A stretch of DNA of 64,000 nt from an uncultured virus (IMG/VR IMGVR_UViG_3300035498_000413) (lineage: Duplodnaviria > Heunggongvirae > Uroviricota > Caudoviricetes): positions 1 to 64,000 of IMG/VR virus record IMGVR_UViG_3300035498_000413. One strand, written 5' to 3'. Each line of letters opens with the position of its first letter. The stretch's first letter is position 1. Under the pieces are notes generated by a model. That model did not search any database. It had not been told where the DNA came from and saw nothing but the letters and a program-made list of their open reading frames with translations. Made by a program: the position numbers and the translations under genes. Below are positions 12,273 to 63,529 of the stretch, piece after piece.

Positions 12273-15200
12273 TCTCTCACTCCCACGTGTTTAGTTCTCA
12301 TTTCAGTTTCCTGCTGCTTGCCAAGGTTAAAGGCACTCTTATAATCACCTGTTAAATATCCAGTAACTCTACGTAAACGTTGAATATTCTGGCTGCCGCA
12401 CATAGGACAAGAATCATCCATTTCATCAGTGTATCCACAATCTAAGCAAGTATCATTGGGGACATTGATTGCGAAATAAGGTATATCGTGATCCATCGCA
12501 TAATTTACAATAATCTCTAAAGCTTCTGGATTATGTTTTGCACTAGAATCTAATTCTACATAAGTAATACATCCAGCCGAAGAATATCCAGTAAGCTGAG
12601 ATTCAATATCAATTTTTTCAAACACAGAAACTTGTTTCCATACAGGGGTATGAATAGAATTTGTGAAATATTCATTTTCACTTACGTTAGGAATTTTACC
12701 ATATTTTTCCTGGAATTTTTTCATAGAAGTATAGGCTAAATTTTCTGCTGGAGTAAAATATACACCAAAATTAAGTTTATAATTTTTCTTAAATTCTGCG
12801 CATCTATCTTTAAATAATTGTTCAATTCGTTTGGCTAATTCCATTCCCTTATCTGTTGTTTGGTCACAACCGATTAGAATTTGAAGTGTTTCAGCTAACC
12901 CAATTTGGCCAATGGCTAGAGTCCCATGTTTTAATGCGCTTCTAATACCTTCTTCTGGATTATATCCTGCCATAACATGATTTCTATACATAAACTTAGC
13001 GCTGGCTGGAGATTGAGAACAAATATATTCAAATCGCTCAATGAGCATATCTTTAGCTTCATGGATTTTTTCGTCAAGAAGATTCATAAATAAGCTTACC
13101 TTATCTGGAGCGTCCTCAGTGGCTTTATCATATTCTTCTTTTGCTTCCATAGCTAAAGTAGGCATAATAATAGTTACGGGGCAAATATTACCACGGCCAT
13201 CTTTTAATTGCCCAAATCCATTAACGTCCCAGCCGTTAGCTGTTCTGCACGTGTTAATCTAGTGTTACCACTAGCACTGACTATATCTTCTATCTAGTAT
13301 TAGATAGTCTTCCGCTTCGGTTTTCAGATGCTTCGTTTCCTAAAACATCGCTGGTGCTTATCTCCAGCCCTACTCCCATACATTCATCAGGGATAGTCGA
13401 TACACTTTATTCATCATAATATTCAAAAATCCATTGTCCTTTAAAAGGACTTTTTACTTTTCCATTTAATCTTGTTGTAATAGAAGTTTTTCCATTTTTA
13501 ATTCCACAAGCTTGAGCACAACTAATTATAGTACCGAATATATCAATTTCATTAGTAATGATATTTGTTCTTTTTATTTTTCGTGCCATAGGATTCTTAG
13601 ATCCTAATTTAGTTTGTCTAATTTTTTCTTTAATAATTTCCATTTCTTCTTCGGTTTTTGATTGATATGTATTTCCTCCGCATTTTGAAATTGCATCGGT
13701 TTCATTATATCCATCTTCAACTGAATTATAATATTGAATCCAATATTGCTCTTTTTTGTTTAATTCATCTTGCGTTTGAGCAGAATCTATTTCTTCAATT
13801 ATAAAGCTATTTTTTCCGTATTTTCTAATTGCCCTTGCAAAATGAGTATCTAATATATTATTTAAAGCATCATTTATATGCCTATGAAAACGCTGTTCTA
13901 TTGGTCTAATTGTTTGACCAATATATATTTTATTATTTTGAATATTTGTTATTTTATATATCCACATAAGCTTTTCTCCTTATTGTGAATATTATGATGA
14001 ATCTTAGCACGGTCTCATCTTATAAATTGAACCATTTTTATAAGACCTAACCGTTAGCCTCTAATTAGAGACACCCTCGAGCGAGGTTCAAAAGATTTTA
14101 CATGAGCTGTAGTTTACGCTTACCCATGGTCGAGAAATAAGTCCGTGGGTCATCTCGGTCATATCCCTCATTACCACTCCAATCGACATTTGCATAATTA
14201 GGATAAAGTCTTTGAGAAGTAGACTTCAATGCCAATTGAAACAAATCATAATTAGGATCTCCAGGTTCTCTATTGACACCTTTCATACACTGAAAGATGG
14301 AACAAGGGAAGATAGGTGTTTTATGCAATTTACCTACTCCTTCAATAGAGGTTTCTAACAGAGATTTAATAATCATACGACCCTCAGGAAGAGTACAAGT
14401 ACCAAAATTGATAGAAGTAAAGGGGAGTTGATTCCCGCTTCTACTCTGCAAAGTATTAAGGTTATGAAACATTCCTTCTACTGCCTGATGAATTTCTTTA
14501 ACTGTCATATCCATGGCATAATCATAAGACATTTTATGTTTATAAATCTTAGTATCTTCAATGCTAATATCTTTAGCTTCATCACTAGAGATAGCTAGTT
14601 TGAGTCCGAAGCTATCAGTATATTTTAAACCATCTATATAATGTTTATAAAAACTTTTACGGACGTATGGTACCATCGTCCAATCAAGATGTGTAGCGCT
14701 AACCCCCATTAGCGCCTCTTATACCTTTCGGAATAAGACTGACTATATCTTACTTATCTTAAAAATAAGTTCTCCTTTTTCGCTTTCGCTACATAATAGT
14801 CTATGAACGTTCTATTATTAATAAATTAAATTATCACTAACATAAGAATAATTCATATCTCTTTTCTTTATATTTTCTGAGTGCGTTAATACTTGTAGAT
14901 TATTTAAACAGTTATTGCTTGGGTCACCATCTATATGGTCAATATCCATTCCTTTAGGTATTTCTCCATTAAATGCTTCCCATACTACTCTATGGACTAA
15001 AAATTTTTTATTTAAACCATAGGCAGCATTAAATCTATAATAATTACCTGATTTAGATAATTTTAATTCAATCTTTTTTTCCATATTAATTATTCTACCA
15101 TCTTTGGTGGCATAATATGGAGTATTTCTAAACTGAGCAATATCGCCATACTCTTCAATATTTATAATTCTTTTTTGTGGTCCTCTATTAGAATTAAATT

Positions 15201-17305
15201 GTTTTAATTTTTTAATTGTTGCATTATGCTCAGAGGGAGAAACCCATTCTAAATTTAAATAATTATTATTTAATTTATCTCCATCTAAGTGATGGACTAT
15301 TGTACGATTCGAGGGGTCTGGATTCTCAATAAAATATTCTGCTACTGCCCTATGGGTATAAAGAACATATTGTTTTCCTTTAAAATAAAGAGAATAAAAA
15401 TGATACCCTTTATTAATTCCGCCCTTTAACCATTTACCTGTTTTTACATTTCTCAATCTACCAGTATCTTCCAACCAGAAATTAGTTGGTTGATTATTCA
15501 ATATAACATTTTTTTCCATCGTTGATTAAAGACTCCTTTTTTTTTTTTTTTTTTTTTTATTATACCATATGGAGTTGCAAAAATCAACATAAAATTTATT
15601 AATAAAAGTTTCGCTGCTGATTACCCAATCTTTAAATTTTTTACACATTCACGCCTGAATCTCTTCTACGTTGTAGTATTTAAAGCTCTAAGGGTGTCCC
15701 AGCAATTTAAGAGATTTTAATTCGGCAGGGTTTTTAACCGAACTGCTGGAGACTTTGAAGCTGGAAAATTACTGCGACAAGCTGAAAAGCCGTATTAACG
15801 CTATTGGCCGGCCGCACATCAGTTTGTCTAGTATTAAAACCATTAGCTAATAAATCATCAAAAGGTACACTCAAACAATTTCCAGTAGTAATGCCATTTG
15901 GGAGAACGAAGCTATGAGTATTTTCAACTTGCAAACACCATACCTCTTCTTCCTTATCTTCTTCAATATTTACAACCGTCCAATAGTATTTATTTGTATC
16001 TCCAATAAAGGTATATTGTTTAGTGAAACCTCTTGTGGTATAATTTGTCTTTTCTCCAGATTTGTCTTTAATTCCAAGAATAAAATACCCCAGTGCAGGG
16101 GCTTCATCTTCTATAAAGCTAGCTATTTGTTCATTTGTAGTAGTAATCGTTTTACTACTTCCTGTATGCTGTCCATCCGCACAATATAATCCATCAAATA
16201 AAGCTAGTTTTTCGTTTCTTGTCATAAGGTTAAGGTCGGGGAAGATTTTCCTAAATCCAATCGTGCTACTGAATGTTAGATATAGGTCGCCGTTAGGCAT
16301 TTCCTTCGTAGAATGTTTCAACCCTATAAACCTTTGTTCGTATTTAATTTTTTCGCCACAAAGTCTCATACGAACGAATTTAATATCTTCATTCTTCTTT
16401 CCGTGTGACCATCTACAAGCCTCTGTGCCATCACCAAGGACAAATCCTAAACACCAATAATATTGTTCTTTTTCTGTCGCCATATCCCAGTCAAACCTTC
16501 TAATACTAATCGGCGCCTTATAAAGTTTATCTCCTATTTTTAAATGAGTTGTTTCTGCCCCATTTTCTAATATCCATCTATGGTTTGCTGTAAAACGCTC
16601 TGTAACAAATCTTTGTCCAGCAAGAGAAAAAGTAACCTTATTCAACTTTTGAACTCCAAATTTTTTAACTGTAGCGTTATTAAAGCTACCATCATGGCTT
16701 AACACTACTATTTTATCACCATCTTCATGGTCAGAAAAAGAATGAACTCCGAAATCTTTAGTGATGAATTTTGTCTCTCGTGCACAGCAGTTGTGCATCC
16801 CGACTGCGTAACTATCCAAATCATGGATATAGATTTCATTGTTTAAATGATTCTGCTTTGCCATATCAGATACAATATAATCCAAAGCATACTGTTTAGT
16901 CATAACGCTAGAAGCTTCACCGATACGGCCTCCGAAAGAAGCTTCATCTACGTTCGCATTTTGGTTTTGGATATTAGAAGCAGAAAGCTTTTCGCCAATA
17001 GCATCAAAGAAATCTGCTTTTACGTCCCTAGCTACTTCTTTCTTATATCTAAATCTAATATAAGCTCTAGCCACATCTCTACGTTCAGACTGCATTAATT
17101 CATCTTCAACCCAGTCTTGAATCATCTCAACAGTTACATTAGCAGGAGACTTGTTGATTTCTTTCTCAATATCATTAGCGATTTCTTGCGCTGTTTCATC
17201 TTCATATAAAGTGCCATCAACTTCTACAAATGCTTTGTTAATAGCATTGATAATCTTATTTTTATCAAACTCAACGGTTTCACCGCTACGTTTCACAATA
17301 TACAT
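12269..17305 (-). CDS. nrdD: Class III anaerobic ribonucleotide reductase in three exons (17305-15737, 14706-14122, 13249-12269), with an intein
   Basis: N-terminal ATP cone. Splicing restores QQFG|GVSATHLD and STMG|CRTANG. C-terminal CxxC pairs and RRVTGYL glycyl-radical motif. Confidence 0.95.
13250..14121 (-). mobile_element. Group I intron 2 of nrdD
   Basis: 5' exon ends in U with P1 CATGGGT/GCTCATG (U-G pair), terminal G at 13250, S element AAGATATAGTC near 13279-13289. Confidence 0.92.
13407..13967 (-). CDS. Intron-encoded GIY-YIG homing endonuclease
   Basis: WIYKITN...IYIGQT, conserved R and E, GYN motif. Confidence 0.9.
   Translation of the reverse strand: MWIYKITNIQNNKIYIGQTIRPIEQRFHRHINDALNNILDTHFARAIRKYGKNSFIIEEIDSAQTQDELNKKEQYWIQYYNSVEDGYNETDAISKCGGNTYQSKTEEEMEIIKEKIRQTKLGSKNPMARKIKRTNIITNEIDIFGTIISCAQACGIKNGKTSITTRLNGKVKSPFKGQWIFEYYDE
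14818..15519 (-). CDS. Intron-encoded HNH homing endonuclease with two HNH domains
   Basis: HRAVA...VHHLDGDKLNNNYLNL and HRVVW...IDHIDGDPSNNCLNNL. Confidence 0.9.
   Translation of the reverse strand: MEKNVILNNQPTNFWLEDTGRLRNVKTGKWLKGGINKGYHFYSLYFKGKQYVLYTHRAVAEYFIENPDPSNRTIVHHLDGDKLNNNYLNLEWVSPSEHNATIKKLKQFNSNRGPQKRIINIEEYGDIAQFRNTPYYATKDGRIINMEKKIELKLSKSGNYYRFNAAYGLNKKFLVHRVVWEAFNGEIPKGMDIDHIDGDPSNNCLNNLQVLTHSENIKKRDMNYSYVSDNLIY
15559..15587 (-). promoter_or_regulatory. Internal sigma70-type promoter for the intron HNH gene
   Basis: TTGATT-N17-TATAAT with extended -10 TG, then an A22 tract and a GGAG RBS. Confidence 0.7.
15878..16789 (-). mobile_element. Intein (304 aa, LAGLIDADG) in NrdD
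   Basis: GMHN|CCARETKF...TANHRW...LGFVLGDG...GLYCADG...NGITTGN|CLSVPF; removal restores GMHNCLSVPF. Confidence 0.9.
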
Positions 17306-17360
17306 AGTTAATCACCTTTGCTTTCTATAAGTTATATTATACTTTAAAAAATCATATAAG

Positions 17361-17921
17361 TCACTTAATTACATTTGCCTGCTCAGCAATTTTCAGCGCG
17401 GAAGCAAGAGGTGTAACTCCTTCATTTTCAATAGGAATAATGCCGGATACATCAGAATTAGATAAAAAGAGGAAATCTTCTTCATCTGCGGAAAACCTGC
17501 GAATAATCTCCTTCACATCAGGATTATTTTCTCTATTAAGCTGTCTAAGAAGTCTAGTTTTATCAGAGCAATTAATTTTATAAATGCTAAGCTTGACATT
17601 AGGATTCTTACTTAGATTATAGATTCCATAAGGATTAAAAACTCCGATATTGATTTTATCTTCGTCGAGTTCTTCAATGCTAGTACCATAGTTCCAGTTA
17701 TTAAATCTAGTCCATTCTAGCATTTCGCCAGAAGAAATAGCAGTTTGAAATTGCTCGTTAGTTAGATAAAAATAATTCTCGCCCTCTTTTTCTCCTTCTC
17801 GGATAGGCCGAGTAGTATAGCTAATAATTTTATGAAAGCTATTAGACAGCTTGGCGAGTTCATTCAAGATTGCATCCTTCCCAGAACCCGCTTTCCCGCA
17901 AATCGCAATTACTTTAATCAT
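17361..17921 (-). CDS. gmk: Guanylate kinase-like nucleoside monophosphate kinase
   Basis: GKAGSGKD P-loop, SYTTRPIREGE, YYF and YGT motifs. Confidence 0.88.
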   Translation of the reverse strand: MIKVIAICGKAGSGKDAILNELAKLSNSFHKIISYTTRPIREGEKEGENYFYLTNEQFQTAISSGEMLEWTRFNNWNYGTSIEELDEDKINIGVFNPYGIYNLSKNPNVKLSIYKINCSDKTRLLRQLNRENNPDVKEIIRRFSADEEDFLFLSNSDVSGIIPIENEGVTPLASALKIAEQANVIK

Positions 17922-20900
17922 CGTCTTGTTCTTCCTCCCCTTTATATCTTTCACTTCTAAGTTCTAAGTTACCTTCTGCATCAATAGAATCAATGCGATA
18001 AAGTTGATGCTCTAAACCGCCGGAAGCATACTTCTTAGCGACAAATTCATTTCCTCTTCTGATTCCACTAACCAGAATTTTCTCACCACGCTTAAACCAA
18101 CTAGATTCAACTATCTTTTTAGTTCCATCTTCTTTGCGTTGAGAAATACGTTTATCAAATAAAGCAAAATATTCTTTGCGGAATTTGACAGGTACAACGC
18201 CATCAGTAGTCAATAGAGTTACAGTCCCTTTCGCTTTATTCTTTGCAATGCAAGTCCCGCAGATGCAATTTAACTTATAGATAGGAATTGTAAAATCTCC
18301 TCGTTTAATCACATCTTTAACCATAGGCTCTTCTGGTAAAGAATAAAAATCAGATAAGCCATATTTAAATTTATTAACGTGCGCGAGCTCGTGTTCATGC
18401 GCGTAGAAACACACAGCTTCCATTTCCCATGCGGACAAATTGCCGATTGCATATTTTTCCCAATCCTGTAAAAATATGGAAGTATTCAGAGCATCCAAAA
18501 TTTCTTCTTGATTTTCCGCCATCCAGTTTCTAAAAACATCCATATATTTTTGGTAGGTTTTATTCCAATCTTTAACTGGCATTAAATAACCTACGGGGAT
18601 ACCATCTAAAATATTAGTAGATACTAAGAAATTAACTGCTCTTTCATCAAGCTGATAATATTCTCCAACTTTGCAAGTATCTTTCAAGTATCTATTAAAT
18701 TCATATACCCGAGACGAAATCACAAATTCCTCGCTATCCTGCGGAATCAGATCGTATTTCCGCAGACTAGAATAATTCTGCATCGTGATACGCTTTTTTT
18801 TATCACAAGTTTCCCAGATATATTCTACCATTGTGCGGTAACGAGGTCCTAGGCTGTCAAAAACTCCGCCTTTAATCAATTCAACCATAACTTTACGATT
18901 AGGATTAACTCTATAATAGAAATCCAGCATAGAATTATAAGGTCGATTTTCAATAATTTGATTAGCTAACCCATCATTCACATTTGCTATTCCCTTCAAG
19001 CCAAAGTAAATTTTATTTTCTTCGGCATTAGGGACAAAGCCAAAGCCAGAATTATTGATATCAGGTAAACTAACTTGGACTCCTGCTTCTTTCATCTTGC
19101 CAATAGCGCTAGCCATTTTATCATAATTACTAGAACTATCTTCTCCTGCTGAACCACTATCATTAATCAAGCAAGCACAATTCCAATAGATTGTAGGATA
19201 TTTATAAGCTAAATTCATTTCTTGGAGAGCCACGAGTGAATAAGCGAGCGTGTGAGATAAGTTGAACCCATAACCTCGGCTAGTGGAGACTAAAACCTTC
19301 CAAACATAGTTGCAGAGATTCTTACTTAAATTCTTCTCTTTAACTTGTTCAAAATATTCTTCTTCCAGCTTTTCAAATTCGGCTGGATTTTTCTTTGCAA
19401 TACTCTTACGGAGACGATCACTCCAGTTTAAATCAAATCCACCACATTCGGGAATCTGAACTAGCTGCATAAATGATTCTTGGGATTCTGCGATCCCATA
19501 CGAGCTTAAAAGATATGGCTTTAGCAAATCTTGCTCTTGTCTAGTTAAACCATATTCGTCCATTTCCTCATACCATTGAGTAATATCATTCTTAAACCTT
19601 GCAAATTTGTGAAGAGGTTGTTCTCCGCCTTTTTCTTGGGCCATAAGACGAATTACAGAATTAAGGTGAGCTAAATCTTCAACGCTTTTAGGCTTGGTAA
19701 GAGCAATACCCTGAATACCACTTTGTTTCTCCATTTGAAATAGCGAAATAACTTGATGATTCCATACCATTTTCCACATTTCAGGGTCATCTCTTTCAAG
19801 ATTGTAAATGCCGACAACAGATTCATAAGTTTCTTTAAGAGTGGCTTTACGTTCAATTACTCCAGCATCACACAATAGGTCAAGACAAATATGGATTTTA
19901 TCTTCAGCTTCGACGCTCAATAAATCATATTTAATAAGACTACAGTCCTCGCTATCATGCAGGTCAAAAGCTGTAACGATAGTTCCATCAGGAGCACGCA
20001 TTAAAGAGGTTGTATTCGTAAATGGTTCATCGACGAAAATAACCCCGCCTGCATGCACTCCCATTCTACAAGGTAAACCTTCTATACTTCTTGCAATTTT
20101 CCAAAGTTCTGGTCTTGCGTTCATTTCCTCTACAAAAGGTTTTACTGGAGCATAATCGTTATCTTTATCTCCATAATAACATTGATGAAGAGTTCTGGAT
20201 ATTCCTCTATCTTCTGGAACAAGAGAAGAGATATATTGGGCATCTTCAACGTCTATGCCTAAGCCTCGTGCAGCCGTCAGGATAGCCGCTTTAGGTTTTT
20301 CTGTACCGAAAGTGATAACATTAGCTACTCTATTTTCACCATAAACTTCTCTAAGCTTATTTAAAATATCTTGACGACGAGATCCCTCAACATCTATATC
20401 TACGTCCAACACAGAAACTCGGCTAGGATTAAGGAATCTCCAAGCGAAAGTCCTGGTGGTTTCGCGCAATGGATTTATCTGGGTGATCTCCATCATATTC
20501 AAAAGTATAACTGATATACTATATATTTCTATATAGCATGGACTATCTCTTTACTTAATATATAAGCAATTCGCGCTTCGAGCGGCAGCTCATCCTCCGC
20601 CCTACTCTACTCAGCCATTTAGCCTTTCGATAGTCTCTACATCTTTTTGTTTAATTATCCAGTTCATTCCTTTAAATTTTATCCCTCTTTTTGACGCCTC
20701 TCCTATTTTAGAAGAGAATTTCGCATAAACTTGGGTATCAGGTATATAGCCTTGTTTAATACAATAATTATATGCGTCTTTCCTAGAGAAAAAAGTAAAC
20801 TTATCGTCATCTTTAGACATTATAATAATTTCATTTTTATTACTATTAGCAGCACTAATTTTCTTTTTAGTTTCTTCTGAACATTTATGCGCTATAATAA

Positions 20901-23195
20901 TTTTTTCTTCTTCAGTAAAAGGAGAAGTTTTCCATTTCATTCCATAACGAACAAAATCCATATTATTTATGGCAGGACGAATACAGTTTCTACAAACAGC
21001 AATATTATCAGTATTTATTAAACCATTAGTTTTAAGATAATTAAAAATTTCTTCCCAAGTATTAAAGACTAAATCATTAGATGTATAAAGTGTAAAATGA
21101 GCTTTAGCAGCTTCACTTATTTTTTTTAAAGTTTCTTCTGAAAAAGTTCTTCCTTTAAGGGATTGACTTATTTTTGCTTTCCATTCAGGAGTCCTTTCAA
21201 CTTTTTTTAGCTTTTCAATCGTCTCTGGAGAAAGCTTACGGCCTTTTCTCGCAATACTCATTTTTTGTTTTGCTTCTTCTGTATGCTTAAAGTGCATTGC
21301 TTTTTTGACTTCACTTAAATGCTTTCTCATCTCTGGAGTTCTTACTTTTCCAGTATTAGCTTTAGATATTTTATCTTTAGTTTCTTGGGATAATTTAAAA
21401 CCTTCCCCGCCGGGAGTTAAATTATATCCTTTATCTTTATTTTTATAGCTTTGATAATATTCAATCCAGAAACATTCTCGTTCATTTTCCTAGCTCGGTT
21501 CTACTTCTTCTATTACTTCCCAAGTAAAATTTTCAACACCATATTTTTTTAAAGCATTATGAAAATAATAATTTTCTGATTCAATGTGACGAAGATGTTC
21601 TTTTTTTCTCTATTCAAGAGTTCTACTAGTCTTACCAATATAAACTTTTTGATTTATATTGTTTGTTACTTTATAGATAATGCTCATATCATCTACTCCT
21701 TTTCTATAAATAAATTAAACTTATTATTATTAACCTTCTTATTATATATAAAAAAAGGATGAACCTCAATTAAACAAACTTGACACGGTATTACCTTATC
21801 TTTTAAAAGACTTAGGTTCCCTTACTCATAATGACATCACTGCCTTCTGAACCGTTAGCTCAACATCTATATGTTGAACACCTATGAGCAATATAGTTCA
21901 CGAATTTTTAGTTGAGCCTAACTTTTAACCCAACACCCGAGCCTCTGCCTGGCCCAACTAGACTTCCAGCTTCCCACACGGTATCAATAATCTTTTGCAG
22001 ATTTAGATAATATGCGCTCCAATGCGTTTTATTAACAATAGAAGAATCCCATGTCATCTGCAAACATTCATTTACAGCGTCATAAGTTTCTTGATTTTGA
22101 TAAGTAATTTCCTTTTTAATTGCTTGAATAATAACATTTGCGAGTATTTTATCGCCTTCATAATCAGAAGCAATGAATTCAAATAAATAAGGAATTTTCT
22201 TAATATAGAAATCCTTATCTGCGGTTGACACGTATTCTGGTATCTTCCAAGCCAGCTCAGGGATTTTAAGCGGTTTCCGCAAACTATAATCTTCACAAGC
22301 ATCTTTAATCTTGCGGATATTTGAGTAAGCTTTTTCTAACTCTTCTTTTGTTAAAGCGAGGCGAGACTCTAATTCTTCTGTATCCATCATATAAGTTGTA
22401 GCATAAAAAGCATCAACTTCTCGCTCGCCATCTTGAGAATTTAAGTAAGCTTTATGGACATATCTATCTTCGTTCTTGAGATAATGACTATCTGTTGTTA
22501 TAATATAAGGAATATCTAACTTTTCAGATAGAGTAATCAATTCTCGGTTTACAAATGTTTGCTCTTCAGAGGCAGAAGGTTGAAGTTCAAGAAAGAAATT
22601 TCCTTTACCGAAGAGCATTTCCATATTTTGGCACCAATGGCAGATTTTGGAATACAGCTCATCGATAGGAAGCTCTTTCCACTTTAAGATTTGGGTTGGT
22701 AGAACTCCGCCTAAGCAGGCAGTGCTCCCGATAATATGTCCTTTATTCTGGCCAATGATTTCTTCTAAGTCGCTATAATATGTAGGAACTCGTCTTGTGC
22801 GGCCTATCATGTAAGAACGCATCCAAGCTCTCGTTGAAATTTCTCTAATCTGCTGATGACCAATAGCGTCTTTTGCCAAAAGAATAAAATGCCAGTATCT
22901 GTCAGAGGTTTTATCAAAATTTTGAGCATTTAATCCATTTCGGCATAGATAGATTTCATTTCCAAGAATTACTTTAAAATCAGGATGTGTTTTCTTAATT
23001 TTTTCATAATATTTTTCTACTTTTACCGCATTGCTAATACATTCATGTTCAGTAATAGCGACTACTTCATGCCCTAGCTCGATAGCATAATCAATTAATT
23101 CTTCTGGCATAATGATAGAATCTCTAAGTCGAAGATTACTATATCCAGTATGGCTAATTATGAAGACTCCCTGGATAGTTCACTCTAGTCTTCAA
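17914..23195 (-). CDS. dnaE: DNA polymerase III alpha subunit, interrupted by a group I intron and a 4-nt insert near the start
   Basis: PHP domain (SLHN/HT, ITEH, GNEIY, TTDSHY); GRGSGVG|FILL splice junction; DVDIDVE, HAGGV, KYDLL and YGFNLSH motifs. Segments 23195-23157, 23152-21928 and 20510-17914. Confidence 0.92.
20511..21927 (-). mobile_element. Group I intron in dnaE
   Basis: P1 GTTGGGT/GCTCAAC, terminal G at 20511, S-like AGAGATAGTC at 20541-20550. Splicing restores GVGFILLN. Confidence 0.92.
20611..21687 (-). CDS. Intron-encoded GIY-YIG/NUMOD3 homing endonuclease with two TAG=Gln codons
   Basis: MSIIYKVTNNINQKVYIGKTSRTLE(TAG)R...GYNLTPGG followed by SEETKxKIS repeats; same frame as 20611-21330. 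Confidence 0.88.
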
Positions 23196-23282
23196 TAGCA
23201 TCACCTCCGATTTATTTCTCTATAGATATAATAGCATATTTTTCTATGAAGTTCAAATGAGTTTATAATACTCGCTTTCATT

Positions 23283-24494
23283 TCATTGTGCTATTAAAGT
23301 TAATTTTTTTTCAGCTCTAGTAACAGCAGTATATAAAAACTGTCTATGCTCCTTTGGATCATAAGGAAAACCTTCTTCGAGGACTGAAACTTTAGACCAA
23401 GAACTGCCCTGCGCCTTCCAAGTCGTCATTGCGTATCCATAAGCGAACTCATAGGGAGGAGTAAAACAAGGCATATCTTCGCTTTTAGGCTTATTCTTAT
23501 TTAAAATATATAATTCTTTAGGAGTAAAAGCTGGTTGTCCAGTAAGCAAACAATTATAATCAATAGGACAATTAACAAATCTATCTCCATCTTCTAATAA
23601 AATATCAGTATACATAATATCTACGTTCTTAGAATCAAGATTTCTAAAAGCTGGAGACCGCTCTGTAACTATATTATAGTTCTCTACTCTACCGATAACT
23701 CCATTGGTAAGTGCCCATTCGCCAGACGCAGATTCATAGTCCCAATGGTTATGTAGACATATAAGTTTATCTTTCTCATCAGGTAGGGGCCCATAACCTA
23801 GCGCCTCCCGCACAGTGCTATTGAGTAGATTTCTGGTTCTATTAGTAGCACATAAAATCTGGTCGGCCCAAAGTAACATACCCATACTTAAGTCTTTTGC
23901 TTTAAAATACTGTACTTCTTCCCTTGCAAAAGGAAACATACTAACTGGCTTATTTTCTCTTATCCACATGGACAACCGCACAATTTCGCTTCCTTTTGCT
24001 TGTCGCATCACTTCATCCAAAAAGACATGAGGCGTATCAAGAACATGATTATCTTGTGTCTTATCTATAGGAGGAAGTTGCTCAGGATCCCCTAGAGCTA
24101 TCACATATTTATGATGCGATAGAAGTAAATCCCACATCTTTTTAGGTAGCATAGAAACCTCATCTACGACAATAAGTTTATAATTATCTATAGACTTTCG
24201 AGGGATAAAAGCATATCTACCATCCTTCATTCTCTTAGAAAAATAAAGTAGTTTATGTGCGGTTGTGGCATTAGGATTACCTTTTTGTCTTAGAACTTGA
24301 GCAGCTTTACCAGTGAAAGAAATATAAGCCACGCTTTCCGGATCTAAATTCAATGCTGCGATGATGAATTTAACCAAGGTTGACTTCCCCGTTCCAGTTC
24401 AGGCGTAGCCAGATATGCAGGTATATCTTTCTCCTGCTTTATATCTGGCTACAGCGATCTTTAAACCTTCTTCTTGTTTAGAGCTTAGAACCAT
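23283..24494 (-). CDS. RecD/Dda-like SF1B helicase with a TGAACT insert in Walker A
   Basis: MVLSSKQEEG...SGYA[TGA ACT]GTGKST, VDEVSM, GDPEQLPPI, MRQ, KAQGS and YTAVTRA motifs. Confidence 0.88.
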
Positions 24495-24592
24495 GGTTTA
24501 ATTTCTCCCTCCTTTCTTTTCTATCTATTGCCATGTAATGTTTTGCCATTGTTACTTTACCTATTCTCGCGTGTTATACGCAACCAATATTT

Positions 24593-24814
24593 TCATTCTT
24601 CCCAAGTCTCTGGCTCTGGAATATCTTTTCTGTTAGTTAAATCCTTAAGAATCTCAAAAAATTCTGCTTCATCTTGTTGAGCTGCTTCCATAGAACTTGA
24701 TAAATTGCCTCCAAAAAGATTTCCAGCTTCATATCTAGCCTGTCCCTCTCGTGCAATTTTATACATTAGATATAAACAGTTACTTCCATAGCGTTTGGTC
24801 TTATTTGATTCCAT
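24593..24814 (-). CDS. Hypothetical protein
   Basis: RBS AAGGAG, downstream of a TTGTAA-N17-TATAAT promoter. Confidence 0.6.
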   Translation of the reverse strand: MESNKTKRYGSNCLYLMYKIAREGQARYEAGNLFGGNLSSSMEAAQQDEAEFFEILKDLTNRKDIPEPETWEE

Positions 24815-25836: not shown

Positions 25837-27579
25837 TTAAAAATAAAATTGCTGAGTTTCCATAATATCATAATTCTCAATGATAATCTAGGGTGTTACC
25901 ATGTCATTCCATACATTTGCTTCACATTTACCTACGACATTGATAACAACACAACCGGATTCAGAGAATAGTTTATTAAACTCTTCCTCACTTGACTTAA
26001 ATTTAATGCAGCTAACTCCATTCGGTAAATTTATCTTTAAAGTGGGATTTTTATCACGCGACATCAGATATAAATTATCTCTTGTCACTTTAATTCCTTC
26101 TATTGCTACATAGGCTTCGTCAATATCTTGGCCCCACCAAGGTTTTAAACTTGCAATATCAAGAATCATAGCGGAATTAAAATCATTGGCAGAAAAAATA
26201 TAGTCAACTCGATATGAAGGTTCAAACTCTATATCTTCTAATTCCTTTTCAGCATATTCCATAAATGCTTCAAAATTAGAATCAAGGATACCTAATCCAA
26301 AAGCATTTGCGTGTCCTTGCGCAAGATAGACTAAATTGGAATCTTCACAAAAGGTTCTAAAATCTTTTAATTGAGATTTATCGTAGCCTCTAGCAGAACC
26401 TTCCCATTTTAATCCTTCTTCTGATTCATAAGGGCTAAGAATGGCTGTAGGTCTTTGGTACTTAGACATTAGCTAATTTGCTATTAATCCAGCAATAGAA
26501 CGATCAACTGAAATATTATCTAATTTGATAATAAGAAGTTTTTTATCTAGTAACTTCTCTTCTTCAATCTTATTTTCTATTGCTTCTAAGCTGTCATCTC
26601 TAAGTCTTGTCTGCCTATTTTTCACGTTAATGCAGGTCCTAATAGCTTGTTCAACCCTAGATTCAAACAAACCTTTACATCCACGTTTAGTAGATGGTAT
26701 TTCCTCATATGCTTTCCATTCAAGCATAGATTCAAATAAAGTTATTTTCTCTTCTAATGTTCCCACTCTCGTAATTGCATTAACGTAAGGAGCCACATAA
26801 AATGCGATTCCTATTGGAGTAACTGCACTTCCTATTGAGTATTCATTCTTCTCTACCATACCAGCCAGAAATGGATTACGGATCTATGCGATTCCTTTTG
26901 AAATAATCTGGCGGGTTTCCATGTCTCGTAGTGACATCATATCAGCGGTGATACCTAACATAGTTAAATCAAGCTGTAAATCAGCTTTATTTTCTTCTCG
27001 GAACGTATCCAAATATTGACAGAATTTGTAAACAATTCCAGCACCCGAAAGAGATTTAGTAGGATAATCACAAAGTTGATTATTAACTACGCAAGCGTAT
27101 TCTGAAATGCTGTCTGCGTGGTGATGATCCAGTATAAGTACATCAATACCTTGCTCAAAAAGTTCTTTATGAATTTCAACTTCATTACTACTAGAATCTG
27201 CGGCAATCACTAGGCCAGTTCCTTCTTTAATCTAAGAAACATCAATACCATGTTGCTTGCCGGGATGAAATACATAATAAAACTTAGATTCAACTATACT
27301 TGGCATCCACTCATGTAAATAATTTAGCAAGATAGCAGATGAAGTGAAACCGTCACAATCAGCGTCAACAATCACGTAAATCAATTTATCATCAGCTAAA
27401 TGCTTTACTAACATCTTAGCGGCTTCATCAATTCTATCAAGCAGAAGAGAAGAATAAATATCTTCATCTGTGGTGTTTAGATAATGAGAAACCTCATCAT
27501 ATTCAATTCCTCGATTTGTTAATACCTAAACGATTGGCGTATATTCTTTATTTATTGGATTTATTAACTAATACTTCAA
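25837..27579 (-). CDS. recJ: RecJ-like DHH single-stranded DNA exonuclease, 6 TAG=Gln
   Basis: TTG start; joins four ORF-track pieces in one frame. DADCDG, LDHHH, ADMM and GHANAFG motifs. Confidence 0.88.
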
Positions 27580-27633
27580 TCCTGTTTCTCCTTTCAAAAC
27601 ACCACAATTTATTTTAAAAAACTCTTAAATAAA

Positions 27634-29183: not shown

Positions 29184-32100
29184 TTATTCCTCCCAAGGTG
29201 GCGCATCATCATCCACCATAATTTTAATATCTTCAATACTAACCATTTCGTGATTATAAGTAGTTGCAAACATCGGTTTTATTCTACAAGTTCCTAAATC
29301 CGCATAACACCAGAGATAAACTCCTTTATATCTACCTCTTCTGTTTTTATAAACTGACATTTTAATATTTGGAGTTTTAAATCTGCCAGAAGCAAGAACT
29401 GGTTCTAATTTAACGAGATCTTCGTCTTTTACGTTCAGTAGAATCATACCGACATCAATTTTCGCTTATACTTTTATTTTCATAAAAGGCTAGACTATAT
29501 CTTTACCATGCCTATTACTAGGTTTAGGTAGACCGTAATTCCCCTAAAAGGGTACTCCGCGCTACCGGATAGTCGTTGAACCTCTTCTCTCGAAGACAGC
29601 TGCTGATTACCTATTGTTTTACCACTTAGCACCTTATTAAGGCTTTTATTTCAGCTTATGGCATCTAATTAATTTTTTCTGCTTTCGCAACATTCGCACT
29701 TATAACTCAAAAAGTTATTATGCTGTAGTTTAATTAGCTTTAAGGCTTTCCAGCATTTTTCGGTCTAATAATTCCCTAAATTTCTTTAAGAAACGACTGT
29801 TTCTAGTTCTTTATAAATTTGATATTTTCTATCTAAGTGTTCTGAACAGCTATTATATAATTTAGTTAAAATTTTATATGGTTTTTCTGTACCGCCGCAT
29901 CGAATGTAATAATTATTTTTATCATCATCGTTGCGTTTTTCTAAATGAGAAGAAATATCTAAAATAGAGTTTATCCATTCTAATATTTCTTTAGTTCCAA
30001 CAATGTTTATAGCATAATTATTATATTGTTTAGTCTTATAAATACTTCCATCTCCATCAAAATATCCTAAAATAAATGGAAGATAAAATTCTTCTTCAAT
30101 AATGGGAGGTTTTAAAACCAAGCTTTTTTTCTGACCTACTCCATGAGCTATAAAATCTTCAACCATATTTTTACTATTAAAAGTAATTTTACTCATAGGA
30201 GTATTATTAGAGAAACCGCAGTCTTGGATAAAATCATTAATTTCAACGTTACTATTCATAAAATTTTTAAATTTAACTAAATGGTCTCTATCTTTTCTAC
30301 TTAAATTAAGAATTACAGAACCATTAGTACTTCTTTTATAAACGCATCCATCAGCGGCTATAAACCCTAACCAATAAGCTTTTTCTGGCGTATCTATATG
30401 ATGAAACTTACTATAGTCTGCTTCATACTTATGTCTATCATTATTTTCAATGTTATTTTCTTTTAACACTCTCGTAATTACAGTCCTAGATACACCATAT
30501 TCTTTTCCTATGTCTTTCATCGACATTTTTTGATTTTGATATTTATTAATAATATCTTTTAGCTGTTCGTCATTAAAAACTACTTTTTTCATTCTTTATA
30601 CCTCTTTTTTAAATTAGATTTTGGAATTATCTATATTATAAGTATAAAGAATTTTTAATTTTAAATCAAATTTTAAGAACCATCCAATCAGCTATCGACT
30701 TTGCACCTCGAAGCAAATTTTGGTCAGGAGTCTCGCTATCTGTATAGCTACCATTAAGCTGAGTGCCCGACAAAATAAAAACACCATAAGTATTAGCAAT
30801 ATCTTTTAAACGAGCTGAAAGCATAAAAAGAACATTGTCCTCACGCAACCTAACACCGCCGCTCTTCCTCGTAATCTCGCTTAAGATTTTTAAGCTAGTG
30901 TGAATGTAGTCATGGACCACGTATTTTACGTCATGGTCTCTAATGCCTTTTTTTATTTTGTTCTCGATATCTTGCAAAGAAAAATCTGGTAGTTCTTCTA
31001 TCCATAGTGTAGCTTGCTTAAGAATTTCTGCCGCCTTGATTACTCTATCTCTTTCTCCATCTTCATATTGACCATTCAGGATATGCTCTTCATTAACAGC
31101 AGAAACAAAAGCCAACATCATAGTTTGTACTTCACTCTTATCTTGCTCCGTAGCGATAAAAAGAGTTGGTTGAGATTTACCATTTTTAATCCACATACCA
31201 AAGTCAGGCTCATAGATTTCGTTGCACGCAAAATTACAGGCATCTGCCACCATAGTTCGTGTATTATGCGTAACAATAAAATCATTCATTAAGAAAAGAT
31301 GAGAATTATTATCAACAGTAAAACAAGTCATATCGGAATATTCTTCAATAGGATAAATATTAGTTATTGCTATATAGTCTTTATGTTCATTTCTTTTAGT
31401 AGAAGTTGCATATTTAGTAGCTCTTTCTACTTTACGAGAAAGTCTAAATAAATTAACTTTATTTTCCTTTTTACATTGAATACGAACTGTATAGCAACTT
31501 TCTGTATATTTCTCAGAGCGAGAATCCTCTATAATGCCTGTAATAAAACCAAGACTATGACACAAATCAACTACTTGGTCAATCATCACTTTAGAAGTAC
31601 TAGTAAAACTTGTACGTCCCTTGTCTTTGTCAATACTTCCATCAGTATCCATTAGCCCTTGAAGTAAAGCATAACGCTGTTGAATACTAGCTGTCATATA
31701 TTCTTCTGGGATAAATTTATTTTGAGAATAAACATTCATTAATTCTGGATACATAGAAATAAAATCTTCAACCCAAATTTTCTTTCCAGTATTGTTATCA
31801 AAGAAAACATAATTATAATTAAAATCGCTAGTTTTTCTATAGGTCCAATTCATAATATTAGCAATAGATGTAGGAAGTTCTTCATCTGCGCTTGAGAATA
31901 TAAGTTCTTTATTAGAATTTCTATATCTAAAACTACCATCTCCAAGCATTAAACCAAAAACATAAGGATCGATTGGAAGCTCTTTTTCTTCATATTCTAC
32001 CGGTTCATTTAATTTGACTCTAAATCTAAATCCTTTATTAGAAGAATCTTTAAAACCATTTTTCAATTTAAGAGTTCTATCAATAATCTGTTGAACTGAT

Positions 32101-33026: not shown

Positions 33027-33027
33027 T

Positions 33028-47820: not shown

Positions 47821-47846
47821 ATAACTCATCTCCTTTAATTTTGAAG

Positions 47847-63454: not shown

Positions 63455-63529
63455 TGGCAGAGGCGCTTCAGAATCGAACCAAGACCCGAGGGGTTAGAGC
63501 CCTCTGTGCTACCATTACACTACACCTCC
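63455..63529 (-). tRNA. Amber suppressor tRNA (anticodon CUA), probably Gln-accepting
   Basis: GGAGGTG/CGCCTCT acceptor stem, G73-CCA, D arm GTGT-AATGGTA-GCAC, anticodon arm GAGGG-CT[CTA]AC-CCCTC, GGTTCGATTC T loop. Confidence 0.9.

What the first reader, a model, noticed from the sequence alone, without database searches (positions are those of the whole stretch)
23140..23195. 4-nt stop-containing insert in the first PHP motif of dnaE: candidate ribosomal bypass site that the code switch could shut off
Seen: after a strong RBS the gene reads ...YPGSLHN (CAT AAT), then TAGC, then CAT ACT GGA TAT AGT AAT (HTGYSNLRLRDS) in the +1 frame. Removing exactly 4 nt restores the HxH motif and a 1286-aa polymerase. 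The site lies in the loop of a stem, TATCCAG/CTGGATA. Known: T4 gene 60 bypassing uses a take-off codon, an adjacent stop, a hairpin and a matching landing codon. Inference: peptidyl-tRNA-Asn could leave AAT at the TAG and re-pair on AGC (one G-U pair) 4 nt downstream, giving HNHT. Once the suppressor tRNA reads TAG as Gln, ribosomes would continue in frame 0 (QPYWIQ) and stop at TAA, so the late code switch would turn the replicase off. An alternative is a micro-intron removed by a nuclease and the phage RNA ligase.
Basis: partly seen in the sequence, partly recalled or inferred. Interest (0 to 1): 0.85.

Follow-up and report, generated by a model that had tools for sequence, protein, structure and literature searches.

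The report
Four-base ribosome hop in phage dnaE
The DNA polymerase gene of this uncultured phage, and the helicase gene beside it, are each broken inside a catalytic motif by a few extra bases that start with a stop codon, and comparison with many related phages indicates that ribosomes hop over these tiny gaps, a short-range version of the famous phage T4 gene 60 bypass.

Summary
It lies on the minus strand. dnaE reads MKTRVNYPGSLHN, then TAG+C, then HTGYSNLRLRDS in the +1 frame. Removing exactly TAGC restores the HxH motif.

It is not an isolated error. 34 of 130 non-duplicate relatives' dnaE loci carry 21 different 4-12 nt inserts at four adjacent codon boundaries of this motif. The helicase next door, in the window too, carries 5-7 nt inserts in its Walker A motif.

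All 27 insert types share three features:
- Each starts with a stop codon in frame with the upstream ORF.
- Each ends in a triplet cognate (14 of 27) or one position off (13 of 27) to the codon before the stop.
- Each follows a hairpin that ends 0-4 nt before the stop.

This is the signature of programmed translational bypassing. In the window, peptidyl-tRNA-Asn would leave AAU and re-pair on AGC.

The supported hairpin is UGAAGACU/AGUCUUCA, which includes the start codon.

The 'code switch shuts off the replicase' idea is not supported as a rule, and the micro-intron alternative is disfavoured. Nothing was tested at the bench, and no reads or RNA could be examined.

Six literature searches found no description of such gaps. 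The closest published cases are T4 gene 60 and the candidate phiHau3 bypass.

The parts
23204..23208 (-). Shine-Dalgarno GGAGG of dnaE, 8 nt before the TTG start
   Evidence: Read directly from the sequence.
23193..23195 (-). TTG start codon of dnaE. The leader is MKTRVNYPGSLHN, 13 codons.
   Evidence: Relatives have ATG or GTG at the same place, followed by AAG ACT.
23187..23194 (-). 5' arm (UGAAGACU) of the hairpin. It overlaps the start codon.
   Evidence: MFE folds (-9.8 kcal/mol for 23196-23157). The same architecture is seen in all 21 dnaE gap types.
23161..23168 (-). 3' arm (AGUCUUCA) of the hairpin. It ends 1 nt before the take-off codon and 4 nt before the stop.
   Evidence: AGT CTT CAT AAY precedes every gap placed after the Asn codon.
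23157..23159 (-). Take-off codon AAT (Asn), the x of the HxH motif
   Evidence: It is the last sense codon before the in-frame TAG. Relatives read SLHN|HT.
23153..23156 (-). 4-nt coding gap TAGC. TAG is in the A site at take-off. The last three bases, AGC (23155-23153), are the inferred landing triplet.
   Evidence: Absent from L004 and L005 (98% aa identity) and present in L006. Other gaps also end in AGC after AAY.
23150..23152 (-). Resume codon CAT, the second His of HxH
   Evidence: The Pfam PHP match starts here. See also the alignment with relatives.
21926..23152 (-). Rest of dnaE exon 1 (PHP domain and start of the pol III alpha domain)
   Evidence: Pfam PF02811 and PF07733. tblastn of an intronless relative.
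20518..21925 (-). Intervening sequence in dnaE. It holds a GIY-YIG/NUMOD3 endonuclease ORF (about 20614-21714, with two in-frame TAGs). The ends are approximate.
   Evidence: It gave no Rfam group I hit at the gathering score.
17914..20517 (-). dnaE exon 2 (pol III alpha, finger and HhH domains)
   Evidence: Pfam. tblastn.
23283..24494 (-). RecD-like SF1 helicase gene directly upstream of dnaE. It carries a second gap.
   Evidence: Pfam AAA_30 and UvrD_C_2. Translation.
24403..24455 (-). Helicase hairpin (GCUGUAGCCAGAUAU.../...AUAUCUGGCUACGC, -27.2 kcal/mol). It ends at the take-off codon.
   Evidence: All 8 interrupted helicase loci have it. Mean MFE is -21.6 against -11.05 kcal/mol in 71 uninterrupted loci.
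24396..24404 (-). Helicase take-off codon GCC (24404-24402) and 6-nt gap TGAACT (24401-24396) inside Walker A. It reads GYA[TGA ACT]GTGKST. Decoding resumes at GGA (24395-24393).
   Evidence: 72 of 79 relatives with this region read GYAG[TSVA]GK[ST] uninterrupted.
63455..63529 (-). tRNA with anticodon CUA (amber suppressor) and an ordinary 7-nt anticodon loop.
   Evidence: ARAGORN, Rfam and the sequence.

Best explanation
TAGC is a 4-nt coding gap that ribosomes skip by short-range programmed translational bypassing, a 'stop-hop'.

Proposed sequence of events:
1. The ribosome starts at TTG 23195 and translates 13 codons.
2. It arrives with peptidyl-tRNA-Asn on AAU in the P site and UAG in the A site.
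3. Instead of terminating, the peptidyl-tRNA lets go of AAU. The mRNA slides 4 nt.
4. The tRNA re-pairs on AGC, with a G-U pair in the middle position.
5. Decoding resumes at CAU. The product is ...SLHNHTGYS..., with an intact PHP metal-binding motif.

A hairpin joins the start-codon region (UGAAGACU) to the codons just before the take-off codon (AGUCUUCA). By analogy with the 5' stem-loop of T4 gene 60, I infer that it drives or locks the forward movement as the mRNA leaves the ribosome. It may also keep a second ribosome from loading behind the first.

The neighbouring helicase gene uses the same device: hairpin, GCC, UGA ACU, resume at GGA.

The gaps most likely arose, and spread as small cassettes, because they break the target sites of homing endonucleases in conserved motif-coding DNA.

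Shown here: the sequence anatomy, its recurrence in relatives, the codon matching and the hairpin association. Inferred: the hop itself, the hairpin's role and the link to endonuclease immunity.
For: (1) Exact removal restores conserved motifs. SLHN|HT is uninterrupted in 96 of 130 non-duplicate dnaE loci. GYA|GTGKST is uninterrupted in 72 of 79 helicase loci.

(2) Recurrence. 34 of 130 dnaE loci carry 21 distinct inserts of 4-12 nt at four adjacent codon boundaries: after His1, after Asn, after His2 and after Y/F-Ser. Helicase loci L030, L031, L033, L034, L037, L044 and L109 (7 loci, plus L027 found later and the window) carry 6 insert types of 5-7 nt.

(3) All 27 types begin with TAG, TAA or TGA in frame with the upstream ORF.

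(4) The last 3 nt of the insert are cognate to the codon before the stop in 14 of 27 types. The null mean is 1.0, and 0 of 200,000 simulations reached 14. The other 13 types match at 2 of 3 positions, and none is worse.

(5) In 24 of 24 representative loci, a hairpin ends 0-4 nt before the stop.
- MFE of the 60 nt before the stop is -11.7 kcal/mol (n=34) against -6.8 (n=96), p = 3.6e-12.
- Under a conservative best-of-four-sites control it is -11.1 against -7.7, p = 2.4e-6.
- The longest contiguous Watson-Crick helix is 7.9 against 5.2 bp. It reaches 7 bp or more in 16 of 21 types against 7 of 87 controls, p = 1e-10.
- For the helicase, MFE is -21.6 against -11.05, p = 3.6e-6.
- The arm sequences differ between sites. 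The 5' arm, which is the leader's first codons, follows the 3' arm.

(6) Gapped genes stay open for 400 or more codons in lineages that are 55-70% identical to the window.

(7) 9 of 27 gaps hold an SD-like GGAG, GGTG or GAGG, as does the gene 60 gap (paper passages).

(8) The same TAGC stands in a second contig.

(9) A published precedent exists for 7-10 nt bypass in a phage gene: the phiHau3 terminase, with a junction peptide found by mass spectrometry in E. coli (PMC10732093, passages read).
Against: - No experiment, no reads and no RNA data.
- The window's landing triplet AGC is only near-cognate to AAU, so efficiency may be low.
- For a 4-nt gap alone, a +1 frameshift giving HNSHT cannot be excluded from sequence.
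- At take-off the hairpin's 3' arm lies inside the ribosome. Its role as a driver is an analogy, not shown.
- The window's own 81-nt fold is not better than shuffles (z = -0.13). Support for the hairpin is comparative.
- A loose pairing criterion barely separates gapped from ungapped genes: 21 of 21 against 68 of 87.
- Insert types are not all independent. Collapsed to 20 families, 10 are cognate against 0.72 expected.
- The 5 cultured relatives examined have no gap, so no plaque-forming phage with a gap is in hand.
- L158 has an extra CT without a stop and fits no model.
Confidence: 0.75

Rival explanations
1. +1 programmed frameshift at AAU-UAG-C, in the manner of prfB. The ribosome moves one base and reads AGC as Ser. 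The product is HNSHT, with one extra residue in the metal-binding motif.
For: A 4-nt insert needs only a +1 shift. A stop in the A site is a classic +1 stimulator. An SD-like GGGAG lies upstream of the site.
Against: - tRNA-Asn would re-pair worse on AUU than on AGC.
- GGGAG lies 7 nt from the AAU codon. The review gives 3 nt as the spacing that stimulates +1 shifts (PMC5009743).
- Relatives have 8-12 nt gaps at the same boundary. There a frameshift would put several foreign residues inside HxH, or meet further stops.
- In-frame gaps of 6, 9 and 12 nt share the same anatomy.
Confidence: 0.08
2. Regulatory add-on proposed by the first reader. Once the phage tRNA-CUA is made, UAG is decoded, ribosomes run on to TAA, and DnaE synthesis stops late in infection.
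For: - The window has a tRNA-CUA.
- In-frame TAGs with Gln-like contexts occur in a subset of genes: RecJ-like, PhoH, amidase, a surface protein and endonuclease ORFs. None occurs within dnaE other than the gap's own TAG, nor in the helicase, primase, gyrase, ligase or nrdD.
- 17 of 21 dnaE gap types start with TAG.
- The phiHau3 model, in which UUA is read by the bldA tRNA, is analogous (PMC10732093).
Against: - TAG-led gaps exist in G004 (96% complete), where all 5 tRNA matches were typed and none is CUA. In G005 (100% complete), 12 of 13 matches were typed and none is CUA.
- TAA- and TGA-led gaps exist at the same sites. G008 has a TAA-led gap and does carry tRNA-CUA.
- The helicase gap of this same phage starts with TGA.
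- G001 and G002 have the same tRNA-CUA but no dnaE gap.
- L205's dnaE has a TAG-led gap and also an in-frame TAG at a conserved Trp.
- The TAG-rich RecJ-like gene sits in the same replication block.
Confidence: 0.15
3. The 4 nt are removed from the mRNA as a micro-intron, by a nuclease together with the phage RNA ligase.
For: The phage encodes an RNA ligase (54647-55942), a kinase-like AAA_33 protein, phosphoesterases and a cREC_REC protein. It is also full of introns.
Against: - The inserts share no boundary motif and range from 4 to 12 nt.
- An RNA-level cut does not explain why all 27 types start with an in-frame stop and end in a triplet matched to the preceding codon.
- I know of no precedent for a 4-nt intron (recalled knowledge, no call).
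Confidence: 0.04
4. The gene is broken or starts elsewhere. This could be an assembly error, a decaying gene, or initiation at ATA/ATT just upstream in the +1 frame, giving a DnaE without the first His.
For: The record is a metagenome contig rated 45% complete. Reads could not be checked. The +1 frame is open from 23179 and holds ATA ATT.
Against: - The identical insert stands in a second contig.
- 34 relatives carry ordered gaps, and their genes are intact for 400 or more codons.
- The short ORF before the gap has a strong RBS and a conserved leader that encodes YPGSLH(N).
- The +1 frame has no canonical start before Met24.
- The same device occurs in a second gene of the same phage.
Confidence: 0.05

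Closest known systems
Phage T4 gene 60 50-nt translational bypass and its homologues in the MobA element. Sources: PMC5009743 passages; bioRxiv 10.1101/2022.08.31.505936, abstract and outline; bioRxiv 10.1101/2024.12.09.627546 passages.
   Same: - A take-off codon followed at once by a stop, usually UAG.
- A landing triplet matched to the take-off codon, with resumption at the next codon.
[quoted passage not shown]
- An SD-like element in many gaps.
- A location in a conserved part of a replication-related phage gene.
- Links to homing endonucleases and cassette-like spread.
   Different: - The gap is 4-12 nt, not 50 nt.
- There is no room for an A-site or take-off stem-loop inside the gap.
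- The hairpin abuts or includes the take-off codon, whereas in gene 60 it lies 9 nt upstream. In dnaE it also includes the start codon.
- Landing is often only near-cognate.
- The genes differ (dnaE PHP motif, SF1 helicase Walker A) and so do the hosts (Bacillota-type phages).
- There is no sequence homology to the gene 60 cassette, and no endonuclease gene lies next to the window's gaps.
- No nascent-peptide signal has been identified.
Candidate UUA-triggered bypass of 10-nt (and 7-nt) inserts in the large terminase of Streptomyces phage phiHau3 and prophages (PMC10732093, passages read).
   Same: - Short inserts that break a conserved phage gene and whose exact removal restores conserved junctions.
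[quoted passage not shown]
- A proposed 5' stem-loop and SD.
- A proposed control by whether a tRNA is available.
   Different: - The trigger here is a stop codon, not the rare sense codon UUA.
- The gaps here can be as short as 4 nt.
- The genes and hosts differ.
- Here dozens of variants at one motif allow statistics.
- phiHau3 has partial bench support; this case has none.
[quoted passage not shown] 1987, as described in PMC5009743, and in the passages).
   Same: Peptidyl-tRNA re-pairs on a matched triplet just beyond a stop. Gaps such as TCT[TAGTCA]AAT and GCT[TAAGCT]GGA in relatives have exactly this form.
   Different: Those were low-level events in artificial constructs without stimulators. 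The review states that no natural in-frame stop-hop was known. Here the sites are natural, conserved, come with a hairpin, and sit in essential genes.
'Byp' elements in Magnusiomyces mitochondrial genes (as described in PMC5009743).
   Same: [quoted passage not shown]
   Different: Those are 27-55 nt (a length recalled, not in the passages read), mitochondrial and GC-rich mobile clusters. These are 4-12 nt, in phages.

Membership tests
Programmed translational bypassing (the mechanism class defined by T4 gene 60) | A non-coding gap inside an ORF whose exact omission gives the conserved protein | tested here: met
   Removing TAGC gives SLHNHTGYS, identical to L004/L005 and to the family consensus. 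The same holds for the helicase motif GYA|GTGKST.
Programmed translational bypassing (the mechanism class defined by T4 gene 60) | [quoted passage not shown] | tested here: met
   AAT TAG in the window. All 27 insert types start with an in-frame stop.
Programmed translational bypassing (the mechanism class defined by T4 gene 60) | A landing triplet matched to the take-off codon, directly before the resume codon | tested here: inconclusive
   In the window, AAT to AGC matches at 2 of 3 positions, with G-U possible in the middle. Family-wide, 14 of 27 types are cognate and 13 of 27 are one position off, against a null mean of 1.0 cognate.
Programmed translational bypassing (the mechanism class defined by T4 gene 60) | [quoted passage not shown] | tested here: met
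   A hairpin ends 0-4 nt before the stop in 24 of 24 representatives. It is stronger than in uninterrupted genes under three measures. For the window alone the fold is not better than shuffles.
Programmed translational bypassing (the mechanism class defined by T4 gene 60) | A take-off (A-site) stem-loop formed by the start of the gap | tested here: not met
   Gaps of 4-12 nt cannot hold one.
Programmed translational bypassing (the mechanism class defined by T4 gene 60) | A nascent-peptide signal that promotes take-off | not tested
   The leader is only 13 residues. YPGSLHN is also present in uninterrupted genes. No test was made.
Programmed translational bypassing (the mechanism class defined by T4 gene 60) | A protein product spanning the junction is demonstrated | not testable with these tools
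   This needs mass spectrometry or a reporter assay.
T4 gene 60 / MobA cassette (homology) | Lies in a topoisomerase subunit gene, has a 50-nt gap, and sits next to mobA | tested here: not met
   The genes are different, the gap is 4 nt, and no endonuclease gene lies next to the window's dnaE or helicase starts. The window's gyrase B and A genes showed nothing odd in the Pfam scan.
phiHau3-type UUA bypass | The rare UUA codon in the A site at take-off | tested here: not met
   The A-site codon is UAG. It is UAA or UGA in some relatives.
prfB-type +1 frameshift site | The P-site tRNA can re-pair in the overlapping +1 codon, with an SD about 3 nt upstream | tested here: not met
   AAU to AUU re-pairs poorly. 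GGGAG lies 7 nt before AAU. The spacing rule comes from PMC5009743.
Self-splicing intron | A catalytic RNA fold | tested here: not met
   4 nt is too short. Rfam finds nothing here.

The most novel reading that the evidence does not exclude
These are the long-presumed natural short-range counterparts of the gene 60 bypass. They would be a widespread class of 'micro coding gaps' of 4-12 nt, each made of a hairpin, a take-off codon, a stop and a matched landing triplet. Ribosomes would hop them efficiently in essential replication genes of many gut and rumen Bacillota phages.

The gaps would spread as tiny cassettes that make conserved motif-coding DNA immune to homing endonucleases. In phages that recode TAG, the same gap could also make replicase synthesis sensitive to the suppressor tRNA.
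Probability: 0.6. Interest if true: 0.9.

Novelty: new variant of a known kind. Interest (0 to 1): 0.85.

Why it matters
Translational bypassing has rested on very few natural cases: T4 gene 60 and its homologues, yeast mitochondrial byps, and one candidate in a Streptomyces phage. The 2016 recoding review states that shorter counterparts were long presumed, and that no natural in-frame stop-hop was known (PMC5009743).

Here one gene family offers about 27 natural variants of a minimal bypass signal. They differ in gap length, stop codon, landing match and hairpin sequence, and uninterrupted sister genes serve as controls. Three questions become directly testable with small reporters:
- What is the minimum a ribosome needs to hop?
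- How much tRNA re-pairing is needed?
- What does a 5' hairpin contribute?

There is also a practical point. Gene callers split or truncate such genes. The first reading frame here stops after 13 codons, so essential phage genes are being mis-annotated as broken.

If the link to homing endonucleases holds, this shows a cheap way for a genome to protect conserved sites from selfish nucleases.

Tried and rejected
- Public reads and RNA: the look-up of sequencing runs listed no run for 22600-24600. None was listed.
- Near and distant DNA search of cultured phages with 22700-23400: no match.
- Quadruplet decoding of TAGC by the phage tRNA-CUA: rejected. The anticodon loop is an ordinary 7-nt CUCUAAC, and 5-, 7- and 8-nt gaps would not fit.
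- A signature scan of the whole window (stop, near-matched triplet, hairpin, long ORF after it) gave 89 minus-strand and 8 plus-strand rows. Most are ordinary out-of-frame stops. Its strict mismatch rule also missed both true sites at their real gap lengths. It was therefore useless for finding further gaps. Only the Pfam scan of 68 ORFs, inspected by eye, was used for that, and it flagged no third gapped gene. Genes without a Pfam match remain unchecked.
- The first automatic classifier mislabelled or missed the gaps after Y/F-Ser, because its anchor took the landing Ser codon for the real one. Those were sorted by eye.
- MAFFT did not bring the hairpin arms of the 'after His2' types into register. 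No formal covariation count was made, and the evidence is per-sequence folds with controls.
- One search failed on a script error and was repeated.
- Cultured phages checked for a gap: Satyr, Gut-P1, PMBT24, CB473P1 and TPWB06. All are uninterrupted. The other 448 of the 453 matching records were not examined.
- Earlier notes of this scan by place and by sequence: nothing.
- Literature: six searches found no paper on stop-led micro-gaps in dnaE or helicase genes. Subscription journals outside the library were not searched. The supplements of PMC10732093 were not opened.
Full report
**What is in the sequence**

The feature is on the minus strand.
- A Shine-Dalgarno GGAGG (23208-23204) lies 8 nt before a TTG start (23195-23193).
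- Frame 0 reads M K T R V N Y P G S L H N. It stops at TAG (23156-23154).
- One base later (C, 23153) the +1 frame reads H T G Y S N L R L R D S ... It stays open to 21908.
- Pfam places the PHP domain from that His onward, starting at profile position 5 of 164.
- The gene continues after an intervening sequence of about 1.4 kb that holds a GIY-YIG/NUMOD3 ORF (about 21925-20518).
- Frame 0 beyond the TAG reads PYWI, TAG, TAA.

**Origin of the record and nearest relatives**

The record is an IMG/VR viral contig of 76,610 nt rated 45% complete. The nearest cultured phages are only about 40% identical in this protein.

A second contig (L006, 110 kb) has the same TAGC. Two contigs that are 98% identical in protein (L004, L005) lack it and read MDYPGSLHNHTGYS.

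In the DNA alignment, window and L004 are nearly identical upstream (a promoter-like stretch) and downstream of the site. They differ in a patch of about 50 nt that runs from the RBS through the leader codons to the insert. That looks like replacement of a small cassette, not like a random indel.

**The insert is one of many**

I collected dnaE 5' regions from viral contigs and from genome or MAG contigs. Of 130 non-duplicate loci with enough upstream sequence, 96 are uninterrupted and 34 are interrupted.

The 34 fall into 21 insert types at four neighbouring codon boundaries of S-L-H-N-H-T-x-Y/F-S-N.

| Boundary | Types |
|---|---|
| After His1 | CAT[TAGTTCAA]AAC, CAT[TAGTGCAA]AAT, CAT[TAGTGCAA]GGG, CAT[TAGTTTATTCAT]AAC, CAT[TAGTTGATTCAT]AAC |
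| After Asn | AAT[TAGC]CAT (window), AAT[TAAAC]CAT, AAT[TAGGGAGC]CAT, AAC[TGAGGAAC]CAT, AAC[TGAGGAAAC]CAC, AAC[TAGGGTGAAC]CAC, AAC[TAGGGTGAGC]CAC, AAC[TAGGGTTGAAC]CAC |
| After His2 | CAC[TAGAT]ACT, CAT[TGAAT]ACC, CAT[TAGTGGAGTAT]ACC |
| After Y/F-Ser | TCT[TAGTGTGTCT]AAT, TCT[TAGCGTCA]AAY, TCT[TAGTGTCT]AAC, TCT[TAGGTATCT]AAC, TCT[TAGTCA]AAT |

One locus (L158) has an extra CT without a stop and fits nothing.

**A second gapped gene in the window**

The RecD-like helicase directly upstream (ATG 24494 to TGA 23283) reads ISGYA[TGA ACT]GTGKST in its Walker A motif.
- Of 79 relatives with this region, 72 read GYAG[TSVA]GK[ST] uninterrupted.
- 7 are interrupted right after the Ala codon. An eighth, L027, was found later.
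- The types are GCC[TGAACT]GGA, GCT[TAAGTT]GGA, GCT[TAAGCT]GGA, GCC[TAAACC]GGT, GCT[TAAGGCA]GGT (7 nt) and GCT[TAACT]GGA (5 nt).

The frame-breaking 5- and 7-nt forms at the same boundary argue that the in-frame 6-nt forms are skipped too, not read through.

**Rules that point to the ribosome**

All 27 types begin with a stop codon in frame with the upstream ORF.

The last three bases of the insert are a codon for the same amino acid as the codon before the stop in 14 of 27 types. They match at two of three positions in the other 13, and none is worse. In simulations that keep take-off codon, stop and gap length, the mean number of cognate ends is 1.0. None of 200,000 runs reached 14, and none had all types at two or more matches. 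After collapsing related inserts to 20 families, 10 are cognate against 0.72 expected.

In 4- and 5-nt gaps the landing triplet overlaps the stop, which limits the match. The window's AGC is the best that TAG+N allows for an AAY codon. AGC recurs after AAY in two longer, unrelated gaps (TAGGGAGC, TAGGGTGAGC).

Nine of 27 gaps contain an SD-like GGAG, GGTG or GAGG.

An RNA-level excision or a DNA artefact would have no reason to obey codon-level rules.

**A hairpin comes with every gap**

Folding the 60 nt that end at the stop shows, in 24 of 24 representative loci, a helix whose 3' arm ends 0-4 nt before the stop. In dnaE the 5' arm is the start-codon region.
- In the window, UGAAGACU (23194-23187) pairs with AGUCUUCA (23168-23161), at -9.8 kcal/mol for 23196-23157.
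- The arms differ by site, and the leader's first codons follow the 3' arm:
  - AUG.AAAACUAC / GUAGUUU.CAU after His1.
  - AUGAAGACU / AGUCUUCAU after Asn.
  - AUUAUGAAG / CUUCAUAAU after His2, with AUUAUGGAG / CUCCAUAAU in one lineage.
  - GAAUAAUCA / UGAUUAUUC and others after Ser.

| Measure | Gapped | Ungapped | p |
|---|---|---|---|
| Mean MFE, 60 nt before the stop (kcal/mol) | -11.7 (n=34) | -6.8 (n=96) | 3.6e-12 |
| Mean MFE, one value per type vs best of four sites | -11.1 (n=21) | -7.7 (n=87) | 2.4e-6 |
| Loose pairing criterion met | 21 of 21 | 68 of 87 | 0.02 |
| Longest contiguous Watson-Crick helix (bp) | 7.9 | 5.2 | 1e-10 |
| Helix of 7 bp or more | 16 of 21 | 7 of 87 | |
| Helicase mean MFE (kcal/mol) | -21.6 (n=8) | -11.05 (n=71) | 3.6e-6 |

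The loose criterion hardly discriminates. The window's helicase hairpin (24455-24403) reaches -27.2 kcal/mol and ends at the take-off codon.

The window's own 81-nt fold is also unremarkable (z = -0.13). The case for the hairpin is therefore comparative.

**Mechanism**

Take-off codon, adjacent stop, matched landing triplet, 5' stem-loop and SD-like gap element are the listed features of T4 gene 60 bypassing (PMC5009743 passages; bioRxiv 10.1101/2024.12.09.627546 passages).

I therefore read the window's site as a 4-nt hop. Peptidyl-tRNA-Asn leaves AAU with UAG in the A site and re-pairs on AGC. CAU is decoded next.

The hairpin's role is inferred. In gene 60, pairing of mRNA that exits the ribosome is proposed to drive forward movement, and ribosome spacing matters. 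Here the 3' arm is still inside the ribosome at take-off. It could pair only as the mRNA moves forward, which would favour or lock the forward step. Because the 5' arm holds the start codon, it is free only while no second ribosome has loaded.

Differences from gene 60:
- There is no stem-loop in the gap.
- The hairpin abuts the take-off codon instead of lying 9 nt upstream.
- Landing is often near-cognate.
- No nascent-peptide signal is known.

**Origin and spread**

On a FastTree tree of 129 DnaE N-terminal parts, presence or absence of a gap needs at least 20 changes. Near-identical proteins differ in state: L008 vs L009/L110, L174/175/178 vs L181/L188, and L004/5 vs L006.

The window's genome is crowded with selfish elements:
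- inteins in a radical SAM gene, dnaB and nrdD;
- intervening sequences with GIY-YIG, HNH and LAGLIDADG ORFs in nrdD, dnaE, dnaB and an AAA_24 gene.

Prompted by earlier notes of this scan, I looked upstream of dnaE in 16 loci.
- Two gapped genes (L115, L135) have an HNH or homing-endonuclease ORF directly in front.
- L009 has an extra 116-aa ORF that its ungapped sister L008 lacks.
- One ungapped gene (L111) also has a GIY-YIG ORF in front.
- The window, L011 and L116 have none.

The link to endonuclease immunity is thus plausible but only partly supported.

**The code-switch idea**

The window does recode TAG.
- It has a tRNA-CUA with a normal anticodon loop.
- Many in-frame TAGs in Gln-like contexts occur in a RecJ-like gene, phoH, an amidase, a surface protein and endonuclease ORFs.
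- There are none in the helicase, primase, gyrase, ligase or nrdD, and none in dnaE apart from the gap's own TAG.

So competition between hop and suppression at the dnaE UAG is conceivable, as in the phiHau3 UUA model. Several results speak against it as the purpose of the gap:
- No tRNA-CUA was found in G004 (96% complete; all 5 tRNA matches typed) or G005 (100%; 12 of 13 typed), though both have TAG-led gaps.
- G008 has a tRNA-CUA and a TAA-led gap.
- G001 and G002 have the window's tRNA-CUA but no dnaE gap.
- The window's helicase gap starts with TGA.
- L205's dnaE has a TAG-led gap and also a TAG at a conserved Trp position.

**Novelty**

Six full-text searches found no description of stop-led micro-gaps in dnaE or helicase genes.

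The 2016 review says that shorter counterparts of gene 60 were long presumed and that no natural in-frame stop-hop was known. The 2023 phiHau3 paper gives partial bench support for 10-nt UUA-led bypass. The 2022 preprint covers only homologues of the 50-nt cassette (abstract and outline).

Earlier AI notes of this scan describe the same architecture in other phage genomes. They are leads, not evidence.

I rate this a new variant of a known kind.

**Limits**

- There is no bench result, no reads and no RNA.
- Insert types are not all independent.
- The tree is a quick one.
- Boundaries of the gaps after Ser were set by eye.
- The window was not searched exhaustively for further gaps (one search failed as a screen).
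- Five cultured relatives checked are ungapped.

Noticed in passing
window 20518-21925 (-): An intervening sequence of about 1.4 kb splits dnaE after the GPGRGSGVG region. It holds a GIY-YIG/NUMOD3 endonuclease ORF with two in-frame TAGs. It gave no Rfam group I hit at the gathering score. L004, L010 and L027 also stop near codon 440-449, while L008, L015 and L018 are continuous.
   Followed up: partly
window 47853-47935 (-): A c-di-GMP-I riboswitch (Rfam, 76 bits) lies just upstream of ORF 46495-47874. That ORF is a secreted or anchored-looking protein with seven in-frame TAGs. A phage gene under a c-di-GMP riboswitch is unusual.
   Followed up: no
window 25840-27624, 47938-49200, 46495-47874, 45616-46491, 38057-39037 (-): In-frame TAG codons with Gln-like contexts are confined to a subset of genes: RecJ-like, PhoH, a surface protein, an amidase and GIY-YIG ORFs. 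The gap-bearing replication genes and most other replication genes have none. The amino acid carried by the tRNA-CUA was not determined.
   Followed up: partly
window 34478-34810 (-) and 34781-35728 (-): An Rfam group I intron (54.8 bits) with a LAGLIDADG ORF splits an AAA_24 (recombinase-like) gene.
   Followed up: no
window 61756-63543, 30669-33068, 15737-17311 (-): Intein (Hint or intein-splicing) domains lie inside a radical SAM gene, dnaB and nrdD. nrdD is further split by HNH (14821-15525) and GIY-YIG (13410-13979) ORFs. dnaB is followed by a LAGLIDADG ORF (29789-30595) before its last part (29187-29465).
   Followed up: no
window 4967-6310 (+): A reverse transcriptase (RVT_1) ORF lies near tail-fibre-like genes. 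It may belong to a diversity-generating retroelement.
   Followed up: no
window 50888-55942 (-): A cluster that looks like RNA repair: RNA ligase (54647-55942), a cREC_REC cyclic-phosphate receiver protein (53576-53848), two metallophosphoesterases and an AAA_33 kinase-like protein (51454-52176).
   Followed up: no
L205, about 37 codons after the Ser-Asn of the motif: This relative's dnaE has a TAG where relatives have a conserved Trp (ISG*VKAE against ISGWVKAE). It also has a TAG-led 10-nt gap, and its contig has a tRNA-CUA. The suppressor there may insert Trp, or the TAG may be a recent mutation.
   Followed up: partly
L158, upstream of its Ser-Ser-Ile-Arg: A distant relative (31% identity) has an extra CT in a TCTCTC run, with no stop codon. 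It fits neither the hop pattern nor an intact gene.
   Followed up: no
L027:230-400: The helicase of a phage whose dnaE is ungapped has the 5-nt TAACT gap after GYA, with the same hairpin. It also has an in-frame TAG earlier in the same gene. Gaps in the two genes therefore occur independently of each other.
   Followed up: partly
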